This document shows, one piece after another, positions 1,600 through 40,164 of a DNA stretch of 64,000 nucleotides; the stretch's first letter is position 1; each line of letters begins with the position of its first letter. Below the pieces are notes generated by a model. It did not search any database, had not been told where the DNA came from, and saw nothing but the letters and a program-made list of their open reading frames with translations. A program made the translations under genes and the position numbers. Origin of the DNA: Raja brachyura (Eukaryota); NCBI GenBank assembly GCA_963514005.1, contig OY740789.1:69192001-69256000 (forward strand), in the 5' to 3' direction.

Positions 1600-1806
1600 G
1601 TTTAAGAAGGAACTGTAGATGCTGGAAAATCGAAGGTAGACAAAAATGCTGGAGAAACTCAGCGGGTGAGGCAGCATCTATGGAGCGAAGGAAATGGGGG
1701 ACGTTTCGGGCCGAAACCCTTCCTGTCTGAAGAAGGGTTTCGACCCGAAACGTTGCCAATTCCCTTCGCTCCATAGATACTGCCTCATCCGCTGAATTTC
1801 TCCAGT
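1600..1806. mobile_element. Palindromic (inverted-arm) Penelope-terminus element
   Basis: Left arm is the reverse complement of the right arm; right arm has CTGAAGA...GAAACGTT at 1727-1754. Confidence 0.8.
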
Positions 1807-4623: not shown

Positions 4624-4845
4624 CGGAGGTAGACACGAAATACCGGAGTAACTCAGCGGGACAGACAGCATCTCTGGAGAGAAGGAATGGGTGACATTTC
4701 GGGTCAGCCTGACTTTGAAAAAGGGTCTCGACCCGAAAGGTCACCCATTCCTTCTCTCCAGAGCTGCTGTCTGTCCCGCTGAGTTACTCCAGCATTTTGT
4801 GTCTACCTCCGATTTAAATCAGCATCTGCAGTTCTTTCCTACACA
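4624..4845. mobile_element. Palindromic Penelope-terminus element
   Basis: Inverted arms at ~4624-4706 and ~4730-4811, plus a ~35 nt one-sided extension. Confidence 0.8.
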
Positions 4846-6582: not shown

Positions 6583-6868
6583 GTAAGAGAAATGTAAAAG
6601 TACTTAAAAAAAAAAGTTTGAACTCTTTCCTCTGTGGTTTTCCTACCACAATTTAAGAGAAATGGGGATATACACTTTATTGTATTGCCAAATACCAGCT
6701 AACCTCTTTCTTCCTTTAAAATCAGCATTCCCTTCCCAAAATTTTACTTTTGTTCCTCTATTCACAATAATCCCAACAATGCATTTTTGTCCCTTTATTC
6801 TTGCAACTATTGCACCATCTTCAGTCTTTGCTTCTCTGCAAGATGCTTGATTGTACTATCAAATCTGA

Positions 6869-8116
6869 CTCTATTGCAGGTGATGCACTCCTGACTGACA
6901 TCCACTACAAACCAACTGATTCCCACAGCTACCTGGACTACTCTTCCTCCCACCCTGCTTCCTGTAAGGACTCCATCCCCTATTCCCAATTCCTCCGTCT
7001 ACGGCGCATCTGCTCCCAGGATGACGTGTTCCACACCAGGTCATCGCAAATGTCCTCGTTCTTCAGAGAACGGGGTTTCTCCTCCCCCACTATAGATGAG
7101 GCTCGCACCAGGGTCTCCTCCATACCCCGCAACACTGCCCTCTCTCCCCATTCCCCCACTCACAACAAGGGCCGAGTCCCCCTGGTCCTCACCTTTCACC
7201 CCACCAGCCAGCGCATACAACAGATAGTCCTCCGCCAGTTTCATCACCTCCAACGTGACCCCTCCACTCGCCACATCTTCCCATCTCCCCCCCTGTCTGC
7301 CTTCCGCAAAGACCGCTCCCTCCGCAACTCCCTCATCAATTCTTCCCTTCCCTCCCGCTCCACTTCTTCCCCGGGCACTTTCCCTTGCAACCGCAAGAGA
7401 TGCTACACTTGTCCCTTCACCTCCCCCATCCACTCCTTTCAGGGACCCAAGCAGTCATTCCAAGTCCGACAGAGGTTCACCTGCACTTCCTCCAACCTCA
7501 TCTACTGCATCCGTTGCTCCAGATGCCAGCTGATCTACATCGGTGAGACCAAGCGGAGGCTGGGCGATCGTTTCGCCGAACACCTCCGCTCGGTCCGCAA
7601 TAACCAACCCGACCTCCCGGTGGCTCAGCACTTCAACTCCCCCTCCCACTCCGTATCCGACCTCTCGGTCCTGGGCCTCCTCCACGGCCAGAGTGATCAA
7701 CACCGCAAGTTGGAGGAACAGCACCTCATATTCCGCTTGGGGAGTCTGCATCCTCTGGGCTTAAACATTGAATTTTCTCAATTCTGTTAACCCAGACTGC
7801 CTCCCCCCCACCTCTCCCTCAGCCCTCTGGCCCTGACATTCCTTCTCCATCTCCCCCCCCCCCCCCACCCCCCCCAGTCGCACTAGCTTCTCATTTTCAC
7901 ACCACAAATAGCTTACAATGGCCTGCTTCCTTTATCACCAATACTTTTTTGCATATCTTTCACTCATTGTTCCTTATCTCTCCACATCACTGTTTATATC
8001 TCTCGTTTCCCTGATCCCTGACCAGTCTGAAGAAGGGTCTCGACACGAAACGTCGCCTATCTCCTTCGCTCCTTAGATGCTGCTGCACCCGCTGAGTTTC
8101 TCCAGCCTTTTGTATA
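6869..8116 (+). mobile_element. 5'-truncated Penelope-like (Poseidon-type) retroelement: RT C-terminus plus GIY-YIG endonuclease
   Basis: Frame open to TAA at 7790 (YKPTDSHSYL; NLIYCIRCSRCQLIYIGETKRRLGDRFAEH). 14-bp TSD ACTATCAAATCTGA at 6855-6868 and 8117-8130. Confidence 0.93.
8027..8054 (+). ncRNA. Minimal hammerhead ribozyme-like motif in the Penelope terminus
   Basis: CUGAAGA-A-[GGGU CUCG ACAC]-GAAA-CGUC. The copy at 1727 has a perfect GGGU-UUCG-ACCC stem. Activity is not shown. Confidence 0.6.
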
Positions 8117-9249
8117 ACTATCAAATCTGAGCCTACTTCTCAAGCCTCATCAATAGGTTTCCATCATATTTAAACCTCAGCTTACACAATGTCGAATGAA
8201 TGACAGTGGCACGTTTTCCATTCCAGACAAGGTACTAGACCATTCTTCTATAGCACCTCTTTTGTACAATTTAGTTGAGCTGCCTTTGCTCTGTTCCATT
8301 CTTGCTTGTCTATTCGTATCCAGGGATTCACTGGCTGTGATTTATTCCCGCATGCCTGATGTTAGTTATCAACGTTCCACATACATGAAGCTTGGCCCAC
8401 TTCCTGGTTCACTTCATGACTGAGTTCCTGTTGGTGTGGTCTGAGTTGCTTTCATTGAAGCCTACCATAGCACTTGTCAGTGATGAGCAGACAATACTCT
8501 TCCAGACATTACACACTGTACCAGTAAACTTGGATGTAAAAATAATCCTTGGCAACTATGTAATTCATTTATGTTCAAACATTTATCAAGAACTGCTGAG
8601 TTATTTTTGTTCCTGTGAATTAACAGTATACTATATCACCAAAACTATGTGATTCAAACTGATCTCTTACATATATTTCAATGATTTTTTTCTTATTTTC
8701 AATATTTTTATTTTTATGGGACTAATTTCACGAAAGGCTCTTCAGGTACACAAGATTGCAGTGGCAGTAGTATTGGCTTCATTCACCAAATTGTAGTCCC
8801 ATCAATGCTTCATCATCAATCTGAGTTTTAATTTCTTATATAATTGAATAGCAGAGTAGACTTGATGGGCCAAATGGCCTAATTCTACTCCTATCATTTA
8901 AGATCTTATGACCGTATAGTGAGATGATGGTGGAAGAACATCACAGTAGTTACATTTTATTGGTAAAAGGCACGACAGCATGGATGACCCACATAACAAC
9001 ATTTAATTTTTATTGAAATTGTTCATTCACATGCACATACGCACACACACACACATGCACATACACACAAGCATATACACGCACTCACTCCTTTAGGTTT
9101 ACTTCCCACACCCCACTTCCAACCACCAGTCCATGAGACAGTCTCCAGCTCCCAGGACATTTAGTTCAAACGATAATTAGGATTAGCAATCAGTGATATC
9201 TAGATTATGTTGATTATCACCTTTTAAAAACTACAGGCATTTAATGCGC

Positions 9250-14712: not shown

Positions 14713-16339
14713 TTAAGATTCTGTGACAATAAATGGGACTCCAGGATGGTCCAGTGCCTCCTTTGTGTCAGTGTCCACAATGTCTCTGAGTGGTTGCAGA
14801 ACATTATCGTCACAGTGGCGCAGCGGTAGAGTTGCTGCCTTATAGCTCTTGCAGCGCCAGAGACCCGGGTTCAATCGCCCTCCACCCTCATTGAACACCG
14901 CACCGCCAACGCAGGTCTACCTCTGTCACCGCCGCAGCTCCACCAATGCATGCGGTTCCACCGCTGCCGGCAGGCCCCGTCGGCTGCAGCCGATGCTTCT
15001 CTCTGGCTTCTCCGTGGCCTCCTGGGAGGCGTTTATAAGAATAATAAGAAGGAACTGCTGATGCTAGTTTATACCAAAGATAGACAAAATATGCTGGAGT
15101 AACTTAGCAGACAGACAGCTTCTCTGGAGAAAATGAATAGGTGACATTTCGGGTCGGGACCCTCCTTTTGACTGGTCTTAGCCTGACCCACTGAGTTACT
15201 CTTGCATGTTGTGTCTATCTCTGTCTTTATGTGTGTTTTGTTTCTGCAAGGCAAACACTCTCTGCAAACCCCATCCTGCAAAAGTACTGTTGGACACCAG
15301 GATCTGCAGAAGTGCAGAACGCAAAGTGCTGGAGTAACAGCGGCTCAAGCAGCATCTCTGGAGCACGTGGATAGGCCATGTTTTGGGTCGGGGCCCAACT
15401 TCAAACCGATACTTCTGTTATTCAGGTCCTCATCTTCCATCAGGCTCTAGCTGAATATGCTAATGTATACAGTTGAAGCTGCTATATAGTATAATCATAT
15501 AATGGTTATTTGGCTTGACACACAATAAAACTACATAGTTATCTGTTTCATTTTCCTTCGACAAATGCCAATCTCTGTCACCATCCAGTGCACTGATCGA
15601 TCAAGTGAGGAAGGATGGGAAGAATAAAGCCAGGGATACCCCGTGGCCTCTTTATGTCCTTCTAATTCCATTTAGTTTTGATTAGAGACATAACACATGC
15701 TGGGCAGATTCCTCTGGTAATCTGGGCTATATGTCATCCCTCAATCAGCATCACTGAAAACAGGTATTCTGAATGTTAGATGGACACAAAAAGCTGGATT
15801 AACTCAGCGGGACAGGCAGCGTCTCTGGAGAGAATGAATGGGCGATGTTTCGGATCAAGACCCTTCTGGACGTTATAACATTGTAGTGTTCAGGAACTAT
15901 TGTACGCAGATTGGCCTTGAATCTGCAGCCATTGATGAGCCATCCATGCTCATCGTCCCAAATCCTCTCTATGGAAATCACTTTATCAGGCTTGGGACAT
16001 CCCGAGTGTCCGTGTGTAACTGCTAGACTTTCCTTTTGGAATCATGTCACAGGCAACAGAGTTGACGTTAGAGTTCACTCCAATCCAATTACTTTCAATT
16101 CGATCCAACATTTATTGCTTCATAAAGTATTTTAATTACTTTAAGAACAAATCTTCATGCTATATATTTTTATGCCATTTTTCTATGTAATTTAAAAATA
16201 TCAGGTCTCAGCAAATTAAAACCCTCTTATTTCTAATACACAGTTGCAGTTCATAGAACTCACAGCCTGTCACTGGGAGAGCTCTCCAGGATTCAATCAA
16301 TGGTGTGCACAATGTCTGAGCAAGCACAGTCCTCTCATA

Positions 16340-18912: not shown

Positions 18913-19275
18913 TTCCTCTCACGGTTTTGTATACTTTTATAATTCCAGCCGCTCACTTTAGCTCAGGCCCTTGAGTCCTGGCAACATCCTGGTAAATCTC
19001 TGCACCCTTTCCAGCTTCAATCCCACTGCTTCACCAGCACAGTACTCCTACATCAGGTGATGTTGTTGGTCCTACCCTTTACCCACAATCTGTTGGTTTT
19101 AGTAAATGAACAGATACCCTGCATCTTTACCAGAGCACACATCATGATAACACTGGAGCTGTACGCTGCCCTTGCAATGTAGGGAGAAGAGCAAGAGGGT
19201 CAATATAGACCGCAGTCTCGTACAGTAGATGCCAGCAGAAGAGGTTGATCCAGCCCCAGTCTCATAATTTCATTT

Positions 19276-19439
19276 GTGTTGGAAAGAACTGCAGATGCTG
19301 GTTTAAAATGAAGATAGACTCAAAATGCTGGCATTATTCAGCAGGACGGGCAGCATCTCCGGAGAGAAGGAATTGGTGATGTTTCCTTATCTCCAGAGAT
19401 GCTGCCTGTCCCTTTGAGTTACTCCAGCATTTTGTGTCT
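19276..19439. mobile_element. Palindromic Penelope-terminus element with a 17-bp TSD
   Basis: Inverted arms; GTCTCATAATTTCATTT at 19259-19275 and 19440-19456. Confidence 0.85.
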
Positions 19440-20694
19440 GTCTCATAATTTCATTTCTGTTCAATTGAAACTGTTGCAAATACTCAACAAGCCAGGCTGT
19501 GGAGAGTGAAATGGTCACTGTTTCAGGTCAATGACCTTTCTTTCGAATGAGAACGATTAGAACTTGTCATCATTTGGAGAGGAGTGGGGACAATGAGCTA
19601 TCTTACTTTGGCTGTAACTGCAGCTTTTTGCTTTCTGACAACTTCTACAGAGCTACAGAATTGTACGTGGAGTACCAGACTGCTGCCTGGCCGGTCCTCA
19701 GCGCTGAATCTGGCCAGAACAGTCACCCACACTGCACCAGTAGGAAATGTGAGCATCTTCTTCAAAGGTCAGAAACATTGTGGTCTCCAGATTCCTGGTC
19801 TCTTGGTGAATATCTCCAATGCTCAAGTACCTTACTTCCACTTGCTCCACAGGTTAGTAGGTTAATTGGCTTGGGTTTCTACACTTGGTATAAGTGTAAA
19901 TTGTCCCCAGTGCGTAGAGGGTAGTGCTAATGTGCAGGCATCGCTGGCCGGTGCAGACTCCGTGGGCCGAAGGGCCTGTATCCGCGCTGTATCTCTAAAA
20001 CAAAATACTAAAAATAGGAACCTTCTACCCCCACCCCACTCCGCTACCTGACCCATACGCAGGAGACGGGACATTGATGTCCATTGGATTTACAGGTGAA
20101 TGTAAATATTTACAATACTTTCATGAGTGCAGGTGAACTGTACATGAGTGATGAAATAGCAGCTTCGGGGCTTTCTTGATCTGACTTAAGTTTTGGTTTC
20201 CAGATTTGTGAAGTCAGGCTGCAGTCACATTGACTCCTCTGGCTTTGTGCAGGGGTGAGCAAAATCCAGGGAAATTATAAGGATTAAGCCCCTGTGTTTT
20301 ACCCCTGGGAAATTCCAGGAAATTTAATTTTCAGGAAATCAGCAGCTTTCATGTTGTATGTACACCCTCAGATGCTGGAATCTTGAGCAAAACCCAAGGT
20401 TCTGGAGTAACTCAGTGGATCAGGCAGCATCTGTGGACGAATGGATAGGTAACACCCTTCTTCACACTGATTGTGGTAGTGGGGAGAAAGCTGGAAAGCT
20501 TTCTACCCACCTATAATCATTTTGAAGAAGGATCCCAACCTAAAATGTCACTAATCCATTCCCTCCACAGTTGCTGCCTAACCCGCTGAGTTACTCCGGC
20601 ACCTTGTGTTTTGATCATATTGTGTGTAGTTTTCCAGATCAAAATTTGCCTTTGCTCCTGTCTGCTAATCACTGGCAACTTATTATGCAACCAG

Positions 20695-23839: not shown

Positions 23840-24224
23840 TATGCAGGAGACCAGACTGGAAGAGAAGGAAGTGAGTCTCCGCTTCATCTGGGAGGACTCC
23901 TTGGGTCCCTGTATGGTGTGGGGGAAATAAGTAAAAGGACAGATGTTCAATCGCACTTTAAATTTTCACTTTCTATCCTGAATTAACTCAATGATGGAGT
24001 TTTAAAGGCCCTTCAGGGGACGGAATTCCCACACACCAGTCATATCCTCCAAGAGAGGCACAGAGTGCTAGAGTAACTCAGGCGGTCAGGCAGCATCTCT
24101 GAAGAACATGGATAAACATTTCAGGTTGAGAGAATTCCCTCCCCAATTCATCCCTCTTTTCATAGAAAAATCCCACCACCAGTCATACCTTCTCATCCCC
24201 AGGCCTTACCATTTTCCACAGAGA

Positions 24225-24775
24225 CACTACACTTCCTCCCATCCTGCCTCTTGCAAAGACAGCATCTCCTTCTCTCCATTTCTCCATCTCTGCTCCCAAG
24301 AAGAGGCTTTCCATTTTAGGACGTGAAATATCCTCTTCCTTTAATAACCGCGGATTCCACCGTTGACAGAGATTCTTCACCTGCATCAGTGACCCATAGT
24401 TCTGTCCCCGCTGCCTGTTCCCCCCAGTCAGAACAAGGATAGAGTTTCCCCAGTCCTCACCTTTCCACCAGCCTCTACATCCAACACATCATCCTCTAAT
24501 ATTTCCACCGCCTTCAGCATGATCTCACCACGTCACATCTTTCCATCCCCACTCCTTTCCACTTTCCTTAGACTGCTCCCTCCACAACTCCTTGGTTCAC
24601 TCATCCCATCCAACCACCCCCTTCCCGAGTGCTTTTCCCTGCAACCACAGGAGACGTAACACCTGTAGCTATACTTCTTCCCTCACATCTATCCACTGAT
24701 CCCAGCAGTCCATGCAAGTGAGGCAGAGGTTGACATGCATCTCCTCTAACCACATCGCCTGCATTCTGTGCTTCC
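24225..24775 (+). mobile_element. Decayed Penelope-like fragment
   Basis: YTSSHPASCKDSI and downstream sequence collinear with 6940-7520. Confidence 0.8.
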
Positions 24776-26084
24776 GCTATTTTCACTTGGATGGTGAACC
24801 TTTGGAACCCTCTAAGCTGTAGGCTTTTAGAAGTCAAGTCATTTTGAGACCAGGGATAGATTTCTGGACTATTACCAGCTGACAACCTAGCCAGCTTGTC
24901 TCCTACTAGTTTATTTTCCCACTCTTACCCGATTCCTTTCTTACCGTTTAAAATATTGTCAGTAGAGGAATGGCCTGATTTTCACCTCTCAGGGAAGCAA
25001 AGTAGTAAATGGGGAAGGAGAGTGCAGGAGGGGTGGAGGAAAAAACGTCTTTACTACAGTGAAGGATTGATGCATGCAATCAATATTCCTGCACAAATTG
25101 TGAGCAAGAACCTTTGGGGAATTCTAACATTGTTATTCTTTTCTTAGTGCCTTTTCAAAACACCATGGCAATGGTCATCCAGGGCCATTCAATGCAGCGT
25201 GTAAATGATGGATATCACCAGAATTGAGACAATAATGTTCCAATTTAGCCATGTATTCCAAGATGTGCAGATGTAAAGGCAAACTGGTGAGATCGTGTTG
25301 ACGCATGTTGGCTCAATGGTAGATTTGCTGCCTTACAGCACCAGCAACTCGGGTTCAATCCTAACTATGGGTGCTGTCTGTACATTCTTCGTGTGGGTTT
25401 TTTCTGGTTTCCTTCCACATTCCAATGACATACAGGTTAATCGGCATTGGTAAGTTGTAGTCCCTAATGCATGTACGGGGTGATCGCTGATCAGCATGGA
25501 CTCGGTGGGCTGAAGGGTCTGTTTCCGCACTGTACCTCTAAAAAAAGTCTAATTGATAATGTCCTCATAAAATTAATGAATTATTCAGCGCAAGAGTTTC
25601 TTCAGATCATCGCGCCTGCTCTGGCTCTTTCCATTTACACCCAGATCACTGTTCTCACCCTGTGATCTCAATGAATTAACTAACTCGATTAATTAACTCG
25701 ATGAAAAGACTATGTCTAATTTGCTAGTTGTACAATCTATTTTCAGTGCCATCCATGCAATTAAAAACCTTGCATAGTCCAGGAGGGAAACATGGCAACA
25801 ACGATTTTCAGATTATTTCTGTTGCCTCACGACTATGATAAAGCACATTAAGCCTCGAGTCATCATTGGCTAACTAGGTCCATGTCGGGTGCATTCGAGA
25901 TAATTTGATTTCCTGTGCAAAGCTCGTTTTGGAGTGCAGCAAGAGAACCTGCACTGCATTGCCCAGCAACAATCAACATTATGCAACTCAGGGCAAGCTG
26001 ATTTTTTCAGTTTTAGAGGTACAGCGCAGAAACAGGCCTTTCGACCCACTGAATCCGCACCGACCAACGATCCCCGCACACTAA

Positions 26085-28773: not shown

Positions 28774-28855
28774 TCACGTCTCTGTGGGACAAACATTTCG
28801 GTCTTTGCAGCAGAAATAATGGACGACAACACCATTGGGATAACGGGCAAACGCA
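28774..28855 (-). CDS. VPS39: VPS39 terminal coding exon, (S)AFARYPNGVVVHYFCCKDRNVCPTET*
   Basis: AG acceptor, phase 2, TGA at 28776-28774; matches the VPS39 C-terminus. Confidence 0.95.
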
Positions 28856-29157
28856 CTAGAGAAAGAGAAACAATGTGGAATAACCACTCTGAAGAGAAAA
28901 CATTAAAAACAAATCACAAATGGGAACAAGCTAATTAAGCAAGATATTTAATTCTCTGAAGGAGGGCATGATATAAATTGAAAATCAAAGAGTGAAATAT
29001 TTAATTGATCATGAGATGAGCCAGCCTAACCTGGTATTATTATGTAGCTGTTTTATCCTCTTCACCGCATTATTTTCTTACCATTATTGCTCATGCTTCA
29101 GCACCAGGTATTCAGTGGGAAGGTGTAGAGCTACTACAGTGCATTCAGTGCATTCAG

Positions 29158-36267: not shown

Positions 36268-36334
36268 GCCTGGCTAGCTCAGTGGGTAGAGCATGAGACT
36301 CTTAATCTCAGAGTCGTGGGTTCGAGTCCACGTT
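36268..36334 (+). pseudogene. 3'-truncated tRNA-Lys(CTT) copy fused to a SINE body
   Basis: GCCTGGCTAGCTCAGTGGGTAGAGCATGAGACTCTTAATCTCAGAGTCGTGGGTTCGAGTCCACGTT; the 3' acceptor-stem end is missing. Confidence 0.88.
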
Positions 36335-36690
36335 CTCCCTATAAACACTTGGGTTTTCACCAGGTGCTCCGGTTTCCTCCCACACTCCAAAGTCATACAA
36401 GTTTGTAGGTTGTGTAGAAAGGAACTGAGGGCGCTGGTTTACACCAAAGATAGACACAAAATGCTGGAGTAACTTAGTGGGTCAGGCAGCATCTCTGGAG
36501 AAAAGGAATAGGCGACATTTTGGGTTGAGACCCTTCCTCAGACCTACAGGTTTGTAGGTTAATTGGCTTCGGTAAGTTGTGAAATTGTCCCGAGTATGTG
36601 CACGTTAGTGTACGGGGCGATCGCAGGTTGACGTGGATTCAGTTGGCCGAAGGGCCTGTGGTCATGCTGTATGTCTAATGTACAAGGTAA
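36330..36690 (+). mobile_element. SINE body and tail, interrupted by a minus-strand Penelope terminus at ~36412-36545
   Basis: SINE core GGTTTCCTCCCACACTCCAAAG; the insert is flanked by a TACA(A/G)GTTTGTAGGTT duplication. Confidence 0.8.
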
Positions 36691-38250: not shown

Positions 38251-38432
38251 TGTGTAGGAAGGAACTGCAGATGCTGGTTTAAACTGAAGAGAGACAAAAA
38301 ATACTCGAGTAACTTGGCGGGACAGGCAACTTCTCTGGAGAGAAGGAATGGGTGACGTTTCGGGTCGAGACCCATTCCTTCTCTCCAGAGATGCTGCCTG
38401 TCCCACTGAGTTACTCCAGCATTTTGTGTCTA
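38251..38432. mobile_element. Palindromic Penelope-terminus element
   Basis: Inverted arms meeting at ~38370; AACAAGCA on both flanks. Confidence 0.8.
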
Positions 38433-38912
38433 TTAACAAGCAGGGATAGGCAGGTAATGCAAGAGTTATTCTAAGTGCACAAAATTCTGGTGTGGGCAGT
38501 CGTTGTGGAAATACATCCAGAATCAATGCACAGAACCTTGAGGAGCAGTGGGGGTTGGGTGAGGGGGCATCATATAGAGGTCAGCTGGAGGTCAGCACTC
38601 CCTTTTTCANNNNNNNNNNNNNNNNNNNNNNNNNNNNNNNNNNNNNNNNNNNNNNNNNNNNNNNNNNNNNNNNNNNNNNNNNNNNNNNNNNNNNNNNNNN
38701 NNNNNNNNNNNNNNNNNNNNNNNNNNNNNNNNNNNNNNNNNNNNNNNNNNNNNNNNNNNNNNNNNNNNNNNNNNNNNNNNNNNNNNNNNNNNNNNNNNNN
38801 NNNNNNNNNNNNNNNNNNNNNNNNNNNNNNNNNNNNNNNNNNNNNNNNNNNNNNNNNNNNNNNNNNNNNNNNNNNNNNNNNNNNNNNNNNNNNNNNNNNN
38901 NNNNNNNNNNNN

Positions 38913-40164
38913 CTAGACCACAGCCTTCCCGCCTGCAACTGGGCCTGATGCGGAGACTGCTGCCGCGTGGGCTGGATTTGTGCATGGAGTTCGAGTGAGG
39001 GTGGGGCTTGGGATGGGGCCGTGACCAGGGCCGTAAAAGAAGCCACCCGGTGGAACCAAGGCGAGCCTAGGATCAGGAGACAGTGAAGTCGGAACCTGCA
39101 CAGGAGCCCAGGCGGCGACTGAGCTGATAGCTGATGCTGCCGCTGGAACCAAGGATGTGCCTGGGTCTACAGCCAGGGCCGGGTCGAGTACAAAGAACCA
39201 GGCCCTGGGGCAGTGAATGGGAGGGGAAGAGGATGAGGGAGATGGGGAAGAGGGGGGGGGGGCGGGGGGAGGATGGAGATGCCCCCTCCCTATTATACAG
39301 CAAATAGCCACTTTATAATCAGAAGAACTGATATTGGAATGTTAGACAGCTTCAAAGCTTCCCCCTTACTGATGAATGCTGCTCTTAATTGAAAACAATG
39401 TTTGAATGGTGCAAACTAATGGAGAAATCTTGGACCAGAGGCTGCATTGTTTGGTCAGCCTACTATAGGGAAGGTGCCATTAAGCTGGAAATGATGTAGA
39501 GAAGATTCATGAGAATGTTGCCAAGACTCAAAGGCCTGAGCTATAGGGAGAGGTTGGGCAGGATAGGGCTTTATTCCATGGAGTGCAGAGGGCTGTGGGG
39601 TGAATAAAACCCAAAGTCACATTGTTAAAAAGAGTGGGAATCCTGTACGGCAAATAGGAGCAGAGACAGTGTGAACATTCACATATAACACAGGGAGGGC
39701 CAGTGTGGTGAATACAGGTAAATGGTTGACTTACCCATAACACATTTTATCAGGTAATTAGGAAAGTAGCAATGAGCCAAACTGATGGAATAAATGTTCA
39801 AATTGGACAACTCCAAGGGGGGGTGTGGAGGATGGAGACGGGGAAGGGTGGAGGATGGAGATGCCCCCTCCCTATCTACCCCCTCCAATTCCACCCTCTC
39901 TACCCCCTCCCTCTCTGCCCCCCCTCCCCCTCCCTCTCTACTCCCCTCTCTACCCCCTTCCCCCTCTCTGCCCCCCCCCCCTCTAGGGATTGAAGAGGGA
40001 GGGTGAAGAGGAGGAGGAGGGAATGCTGGGGGATGAGGAGAAATGAGATGCACCTGTACAGTTGGGGGCTATGTGTGAGTGGTGCAATATTGCGTTGGGG
40101 AAATGGGTGAGTGGTGGAATCCTGCGTTGGGGGAGCAGACCCAATGCGTCTGCACTTGGTCTAG
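38913..40164 (+). mobile_element. Non-autonomous Helitron; 5' end probably in the N gap at 38610-38912
   Basis: Hairpin GCAGAC-N7-GTCTGC at 40135-40153, ending 11 nt before the end of a terminal CTAG that is followed by T. Confidence 0.65.
39291..39817 (+). repeat. Near-identical copy of 37426-37951
   Basis: Direct comparison gives about 10 differences over ~530 bp. Confidence 0.95.

What the first reader, a model, noticed from the sequence alone, without database searches (positions are those of the whole stretch)
19259..19456. Palindromic Penelope-terminus mini-elements inserted as single units
Seen: inverted pairs of the Penelope terminus at 1600-1806, 4624-4845, ~15048-15222, 19276-19439, ~20369-20612 and 38251-38432. 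This one has a perfect 17-bp TSD enclosing both arms. In the clear cases only one arm carries the ~35-nt terminal extension, and the arms join at or near the hammerhead motif with a different junction each time. Known: Penelope elements form inverted pseudo-LTRs with a short tail. Inference: these are ORF-less hairpin insertions generated repeatedly by inversion at the ribozyme, possibly re-mobilisable, and they would seed dsRNA hairpins in pre-mRNAs such as VPS39. This is the best candidate for an under-described system here.
Basis: partly seen in the sequence, partly recalled or inferred. Interest (0 to 1): 0.7.

Follow-up and report, generated by a model that had tools for sequence, protein, structure and literature searches.

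The report
Head-to-head Penelope retrotransposon insertion stub
This 164-base DNA hairpin is two back-to-back end pieces of a Penelope-type jumping gene inside one 17-base target duplication, a known layout that is very common in this genome and is likely rebuilt at each insertion, when both cut DNA strands would each prime a short copy of the element's RNA.

Summary
Real, but a known layout. 19276-19439 is a head-to-head pair of the ~95/130-nt terminus of a Neptune/Nematis-type Penelope-like element (RT + GIY-YIG), inside a perfect 17-bp TSD. In 1.59 Mb of evenly spaced genome samples there are 117 such pairs against 14 tail-to-tail. All 43 classifiable TSD-bearing pairs join one tailed to one tail-less arm, with 43 different called junctions. 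The focal junction (3-nt microhomology) recurs elsewhere in both tail polarities among unrelated copies, so this is no amplifying family. Kilobase-long inversions obey the same rule, and in two of three their arms look like one source lineage. Junctions gather at the head of the unit, not at the predicted hammerhead cut (0 of 86 arm ends), and the focal copy has lost the ribozyme core. It lies ~8.6 kb beyond VPS39's likely poly(A) signal; only the 38251 pair is inside VPS39. Best reading: both target strands prime reverse transcription at the element's two internal start sites, and the short cDNAs are end-joined. Inverted pLTR, one-sided tail and TSD are in print; the strict one-of-each rule was not found in my searches. 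This scan noted the same thing before in this genome and at least 30 genomes.

The parts
19259..19275 (.). Left copy of the 17-bp target-site duplication
19276..19385 (-). Tailed arm: unit positions 132 back to 23; the ~36-nt tail is 19276-19311; keeps only GAAACATC of the hammerhead-like motif
19383..19385 (.). TTC microhomology shared by both arms at the junction
19383..19439 (+). Tail-less arm: unit positions 36 to about 92; no hammerhead sequence
19440..19456 (.). Right copy of the 17-bp TSD
1601..1805 (.). Head-to-head pair, subfamily B; tailed left arm, short arm cut at position 81; no convincing TSD
4624..4845 (.). Head-to-head pair, tail-less left and tailed right; 10-bp candidate TSD with 1 mismatch
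15045..15221 (.). Head-to-head pair, tailed left arm to position -1, short arm from position 57; no TSD found
20369..20611 (.). Older, divergent head-to-head pair with a 44-nt spacer; 14-bp TSD with 2 mismatches
38251..38434 (.). Head-to-head pair with 8-bp TSD and ACCC microhomology; the only one of the six inside the VPS39 gene span
6864..8128 (+). 5'-truncated parent-type copy: ORF remnant 6864-7787 (97% to residues 248-555 of the L057 protein, incl. GIY-YIG), then UTR and tail-less terminus 8026-8128
28774..28857 (-). Last coding exon of VPS39 (zf-Vps39_C match 28801-28857, stop 28776-28774); AATAAA at 28019-28014; context only

Best explanation
The hairpin is the smallest class of ordinary inverted insertion of an endonuclease-bearing Penelope-like retrotransposon, likely made anew at its site when both nicked target strands each prime a short cDNA on the element's RNA leader. 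Shown: the ~130-nt unit is both the 3' terminus of the element and the leader just upstream of its ORF; insertions end at two fixed points (about +95 and +130); TSD-bearing inverted pairs use one of each; one TSD encloses both arms; junctions vary; long inversions follow the same rule. Known from the anole element in vitro (PMC11167929): both strands are cut and extended, and RT starts at two internal sites that bound the tail. Inferred: staggered nicks 8-19 bp apart; one strand primes at +95 and the other at +130, probably on RNA from one source locus and possibly one molecule; a transcript starting near position 0 limits most cDNAs to 95-130 nt; the two cDNA ends are joined by microhomology or end-joining (here TTC). 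The focal copy is an old, decayed, ribozyme-less scar with no shown function.
For: Parent ORF with RT, DKG, CX4CX2C linker and GIY-YIG lies 90-265 nt upstream of both A- and B-type termini. In full-length young copies the unit is followed by a 1,204-aa open frame from position 130. 117 head-to-head against 14 tail-to-tail neighbours. 43 of 43 classifiable TSD-bearing pairs, and 76 of 90 classifiable pairs overall, are tailed/tail-less against 50% expected. 43 different junction calls in 43 pairs; 24 of 43 have an arm reaching -4..+5. The same TTC junction occurs with the tail on the position-23 arm (6 loci plus the focal) or on the position-36 arm (7 loci); identity within 84.8% and 85.0%, between 85.3%. 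Three long inversions (3 of 18 long copies whose ends were fetched) are all tailed/tail-less with 14-15-bp TSDs, and each arm holds sequence the other lacks. L151's arms share 13 non-majority variants over 2,677 sites, 11 of them rare; L147's arms are identical over 351 sites. 91 of 131 single copies reaching the head share no upstream sequence with another copy.
Against: No transcription start was measured; position 0 as RNA 5' end is inferred from copy boundaries and an initiator-like CCAGT/TCAGT (consensus recalled). L136's arms differ at 10 of 718 sites, no closer than to other copies, although they share one private change; L151's arms (0.71%) are barely closer to each other than to one other copy (0.75-0.79%), so one molecule against one lineage is not resolved. 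Among 76 old pairs the arms are only modestly more alike than random arms (82% against 78%), which subfamily age alone could give. The junction caller is noisy on decayed copies (29 of 43 calls include unassigned letters), which inflates distinctness. In the focal copy the tail-less arm is nested within the tailed arm, so fold-back is not excluded for this copy. 14 of 90 classifiable pairs break the rule (none has a TSD) and 70 of 117 have no detectable TSD. In vitro, start sites did not differ between strands (PMC11167929), so the one-of-each rule is not explained by published biochemistry.
Confidence: 0.75

Rival explanations
1. Self-priming or fold-back: one cDNA (or an antisense template) folds back, copies itself, and the endonuclease resolves the intermediate, leaving the tail on one side (proposed in PMC3846280 and PMC8557442).
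For: Would give the one-of-each rule and shared variants between arms. The focal short arm is nested in the long arm. Some centres are palindromic or sit in the self-complementary stem.
Against: In 25 of 43 pairs the tail-less arm reaches further 5' than the tailed arm, and by hundreds to thousands of bases in 3 of 3 long inversions, so neither arm is a plain copy of the other without later resection. The +95 end occurs alone in 11 of 15 non-inverted long copies and matches a direct RT start site in the anole work.
Confidence: 0.15
2. The palindromes are a non-autonomous family that is re-mobilised as a unit.
For: Some junctions recur: 22 genome matches to a 24-nt pattern of the focal junction; 7/38 and 2/47 junctions also recur among top hits.
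Against: Recurring junctions are microhomology sites used in both tail polarities; no excess identity within a polarity; the focal copy is 78-87% identical to them and shares 0-2 variants with each; its best full-length genome hit is 86% among 40 candidates scored of 5,074.
Confidence: 0.04
3. Hammerhead self-cleavage sets the inversion point.
For: A minimal-hammerhead-like motif fills positions 3-30 of the unit (consensus; type described in PMC4209133), and many junctions fall within positions 1-30.
Against: 0 of 86 arm ends at the predicted cut (position 31); the peak is at the head of the unit (33 of 86 ends at -4..+5); long inversions turn far away; hammerhead mutants did not change insertion in vitro (PMC11167929).
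Confidence: 0.04
4. Two independent insertions side by side, or an assembly artefact.
For: Copies are dense (412 arms per Mb); 3 of 117 close pairs mix subfamilies.
Against: One 17-bp TSD encloses both arms; strong orientation bias; arms differ at 11 of 57 sites, unlike a read-chimera palindrome; contigs of two other runs cross both flank-arm borders.
Confidence: 0.02

Closest known systems
EN+ Penelope-like insertions with inverted 5' pLTR, one-sided 30-40-bp tail and TSD (Adineta vaga Pen2a, PMC3846280, passages and Discussion read; general scheme PMC8557442, passages read; D. virilis Penelope, PMC2377424, passages read)
   Same: Head-to-head orientation, tail at one end only, one TSD around both arms, 5'-truncated inverted copy.
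   Different: Here both arms are cut to 57-130 nt with no ORF, and the numbers (about 74 pairs per Mb) reveal a strict one-tailed/one-tail-less rule that the papers describe only as 'often' or 'optional'.
Anole Poseidon element PAc in vitro (PMC11167929, parts 1-2 of 4 read: all results and discussion)
   Same: Both target strands extended, two internal RT start sites bounding the tail, hammerhead just upstream and dispensable for insertion.
   Different: PAc is Penelope/Poseidon clade and its start sites lie inside the ORF; here they lie just before the ORF of a linker-Zn-finger element. The paper does not model inverted pairs and saw no strand difference in start site.
Dual minimal hammerheads on opposite strands ~100-700 bp apart in Schistosoma PLEs (PMC4209133, parts 1-2 of 4 read)
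   Same: Short opposite-strand pairs of PLE termini, most copies being truncated PLEs.
   Different: Noted in passing there without TSD, tail or junction analysis; the focal copy has lost the motif.
L1 twin priming
   Same: Works like it: both target strands prime, inverted segment, microhomology join.
   Different: L1 twin-primed segments do not overlap on the RNA; these arms overlap over up to 2.7 kb and start at two fixed sites ~35 nt apart.
Non-LTR retrozymes (bioRxiv 10.64898/2026.07.22.740005, search listing and 4 passages read)
   Same: ORF-less, hammerhead-bearing, PLE-related short sequences.
   Different: Retrozymes are tandem head-to-tail units; these are head-to-head, without a shared junction.

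Membership tests
EN+ Penelope-like element (parent) | Single ORF with RT and C-terminal GIY-YIG endonuclease | tested here: met
   RVT_1 E 3.5e-5 and GIY-YIG E 5.6e-4, both below Pfam cut-offs but in the expected order; 1,204-aa open frame
EN+ Penelope-like element (parent) | DKG motif and CCHH finger with two cysteines between GIY and YIG | tested here: met
   KPADKGG and LIYCIRCSRCQLIYIG...EH...QH read by eye; definition from PMC8557442
EN+ Penelope-like element (parent) | Partial tandems (pLTR), inverted 5' copy, optional 30-40-nt tail, variable TSD | tested here: met
EN+ Penelope-like element (parent) | Minimal hammerhead in the pLTR | tested here: inconclusive
   CUGAAGA...GAAACGUC with a stem II in the consensus; no Rfam hammerhead match at E<=1; helix I only 2-4 bp; cleavage untested; absent from the focal copy
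Neptune/Nematis clade | CX2-5CxxC finger in the RT-EN linker | tested here: met
   CNRKRCYTC before the GIY-YIG domain
Neptune/Nematis clade | Placement in an RT phylogeny | not tested
   No named reference PLE proteins were on hand
Non-autonomous amplifying family (SINE-, MITE- or retrozyme-like) | Fixed internal structure shared by descent across loci | tested here: not met
   43 different junction calls in 43 pairs; recurring junction in both polarities without relatedness
MITE (class II) | Symmetric terminal inverted repeats and fixed short TSD | tested here: not met
   Ends are asymmetric in 43 of 43; TSD 8-19 bp, 37 of 47 at 11-15
L1-type twin priming product | Inverted and direct segments do not overlap on the template | tested here: not met
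   Arms overlap over 351-2,677 compared sites in long cases; it works like twin priming but is not this product

The most novel reading that the evidence does not exclude
Each inverted Penelope insertion is the footprint of an obligate two-active-site machine: a protein dimer on one RNA starts one cDNA at +95 from one target strand and another at +130 from the other, so the unexplained tail and the inverted pLTR are one event, recorded about 200,000 times in this genome.
Probability: 0.45. Interest if true: 0.65.

Novelty: new member of a known kind. Interest (0 to 1): 0.38.

Why it matters
How Penelope-like elements build inverted ends and the one-sided tail is stated as open in PMC8557442 and PMC11167929. 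The one-of-each rule and the overlapping arms give a sharp prediction for an existing in vitro system. About 74 such hairpins per Mb could also be a large source of intronic dsRNA in this animal, but nothing here shows that. The focal copy itself is an old scar without a shown role, and the layout is not a new system.

Tried and rejected
Untemplated GC at the head of short copies: striking among top hits of a query that carried it, rare in the unbiased sample; rejected as query bias. Cap-derived extra G: not seen as a consistent letter among 34 of 177 single copies with a TSD (the TSD search looked only at -12..+3, so it cannot itself prove a flush start). Leading/trailing polymerase (tail-less arm runs further): 28 against 8 by HMM ends but 25 against 15, p 0.15, with the junction caller; left as weak. 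Splice acceptor at the head (pyrimidine tract, CTGAC, CAG): no clean intron joint among those shown (28 more not shown), and young copies keep bases upstream of the AG. Empty allele: none among the joints shown (158 more not shown); inconclusive. Expression: no RNA holder listed on record and only contigs were available, so start sites, editing, small RNAs and circRNA were not testable; two probable RNA contig sets had no cover on the unique flanks, which is no evidence either way. Host gene around the focal site: 0 of 125 open frames in 1-28 kb reached a Pfam cut-off; a short-exon or non-coding host is not excluded. No solved structure matched the ORF. Whole 10-kb regions around the long copies were not obtained; only 18 of 25 had their 3' ends read, so other inversions may be missed. 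Literature: searches found no paper stating the one-of-each rule or two-strand priming for inverted PLE ends; subscription papers, Repbase/Dfam entries and all supplements (not opened) may hold it.

Full report
Observation. The 17-mer at 19259-19275 recurs exactly at 19440-19456 and encloses a 164-nt insert. The insert folds as a hairpin (-79.7 kcal/mol, z -8.8). On a coordinate axis for the repeat's terminal unit (position 1 = G of GTCTGAAG; HMMs), the left arm is positions 132 back to 23 on the minus strand, the right arm 36 to about 92 on the plus strand, joined through a shared TTC. The arms agree at 46 of 57 sites, so the insertion is old.

Parent element. Long copies in genome samples carry an ORF with RT, a DKG motif, a CX4CX2C linker and a GIY-YIG domain with CxxC and two histidines (Pfam scores below cut-off). 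By the definitions in PMC8557442 (passages) this is a Neptune/Nematis-type Penelope-like element; no tree was built. Both terminus types (A, like the focal copy, and B) lie 90-265 nt behind the GIY-YIG end at many loci, and the window holds such a remnant at 6864-8128. In full-length young copies the same unit also stands in front of the ORF: a 1,204-aa open frame begins at position 130. The two recurring 3' ends, about +95 and +130, are therefore internal to the RNA leader, like the two RT start sites that bound the tail in the anole element (PMC11167929).

Frequency and single origin. I sampled 159 evenly spaced 10-kb stretches (160 asked). They hold 655 arms; within 60 nt there are 117 head-to-head neighbours of 172, 14 tail-to-tail of 145, and 31 tandem of 200. 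That is 74 pairs per Mb (61-88), about 200,000 if extrapolated. A TSD scoring 8 or more flanks 47 of 117 pairs against 2.3% of 800 mismatched flank pairs; lengths are 8-19 bp, 37 of 47 at 11-15.

The one-of-each rule. Of 90 pairs with both ends classifiable (27 were not), 76 are tailed/tail-less, 9 tail-less on both sides and 5 tailed on both. Among the 47 with a TSD, all 43 classifiable ones are tailed/tail-less (4 unclassifiable), against 50% expected. Three long inversions among 18 long copies whose ends were read behave the same, with 14-15-bp TSDs. Of the other 15, 11 end tail-less and 4 tailed, so either site can start a first strand.

De novo or family. The 43 TSD pairs give 43 different junction calls, although the caller is noisy on old copies. 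The focal junction does recur: 22 genome matches to a 24-nt pattern. Six have the tail on the position-23 arm as the focal does, seven on the other arm, and nine are doubly tailed, truncated or not pairs. Identity is the same within (84.8%, 85.0%) and between (85.3%) polarities, and the focal copy is 78-87% identical to them. The junction is a microhomology hot spot, not a clone.

Role of the hammerhead. The unit's positions 3-30 read like the minimal PLE hammerhead of PMC4209133; Rfam gave no match; the cut after position 30 is from recalled hammerhead numbering. No arm end of 86 falls at 31, whereas 33 fall at -4..+5. Single copies share that boundary: 91 of 131 that reach the head have no upstream sequence in common with another copy, and several repeat the first bases of the head, as expected from run-off and re-priming. 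The boundary resembles an initiator (recalled consensus); no RNA data could test it. The focal copy lacks the CUGANGA box on both arms.

One template or two. L151's arms overlap over 2,677 sites, share 13 non-majority variants (11 found in at most 3 of 17-23 other copies) and differ at 19 mostly private sites. L147's arms are identical over 351 sites. L136's differ at 10 of 718 and share one private change. In 76 old pairs rare variants are shared at 8.1% (36 of 446) against 2.6% for random partners. This points to one source lineage, but does not separate one molecule from two sister RNAs. Plain fold-back (PMC3846280 Discussion) fits poorly because the tailed arm alone has the tail while the tail-less arm reaches further 5' in 25 of 43 pairs and in all three long cases; it stays possible for the focal copy.

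Host context. VPS39 runs on the minus strand from beyond the window's right end to a last exon at about 28.8 kb with AATAAA at 28019-28014. The focal insertion is about 8.6 kb further downstream. Only 38251-38434 lies in the gene; it would fold strongly in the pre-mRNA sense (-104.5 kcal/mol, z -13.5), but editing or small RNAs were not testable.

Comparison and verdict. Inverted pLTR, one-sided tail and enclosing TSD are described, and short opposite-strand hammerhead pairs were noted in Schistosoma. My eight literature searches did not find the strict rule or a two-strand priming model for these inversions. My reading was written down before I looked at earlier notes of this scan, which report the same thing 152 times by word match in at least 30 genomes and many times in this one; they are not independent evidence. 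Verdict: a new member of a known kind, interest 0.38; the value lies in the testable mechanism, not in this locus.

Noticed in passing
window 6864-8128 (+) and 23840-24777: A young 5'-truncated copy of the parent element, and older ORF remnants of the same class.
   Followed up: partly
L131-L154: A very young subfamily (about 99% identical copies, 3,943 first-look candidates) with partial tandems and a 1,204-aa open frame in L148; likely recently active.
   Followed up: partly
window 36275-36331 and 36332-36666: Truncated tRNA-like match (40 bits) next to a SINE-like repeat that carries a tailed terminus at 36411-36543.
   Followed up: no
window 39809-40036: A hairpin-prone stretch that weakly matches many miRNA models, all far below their thresholds.
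   Followed up: no
window 18997-19738: Two public contig sets hold a second version of the flanks, 4-7% divergent (about three times deeper in one set), also running into the arms: a divergent haplotype or a duplication.
   Followed up: no
L177-L206: A subset of young short copies begins with an extra GC, partly as microhomology with the target; some palindrome centres read TGCA. Rare in the unbiased sample.
   Followed up: yes
L068:1931, L119:2245, L234:6797, L262:1408, L262:6349: Single copies repeat part of their own head upstream of position 1, as if RT re-primed at the second GTCT after running off.
   Followed up: partly
L205:1499-1929: A head-to-head pair with about 190 nt of what reads like the element's own ORF sequence between the arms, a possible template jump.
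   Followed up: no
L171: Tandem head-to-tail repeats of part of the terminus, retrozyme- or satellite-like.
   Followed up: no
upstream of unit position 1 in long copies (e.g. L148): Pyrimidine tract, CTGAC and CAG resemble a 3' splice site directly before the hammerhead-like motif; D. virilis has an intron end there (PMC4209133).
   Followed up: partly
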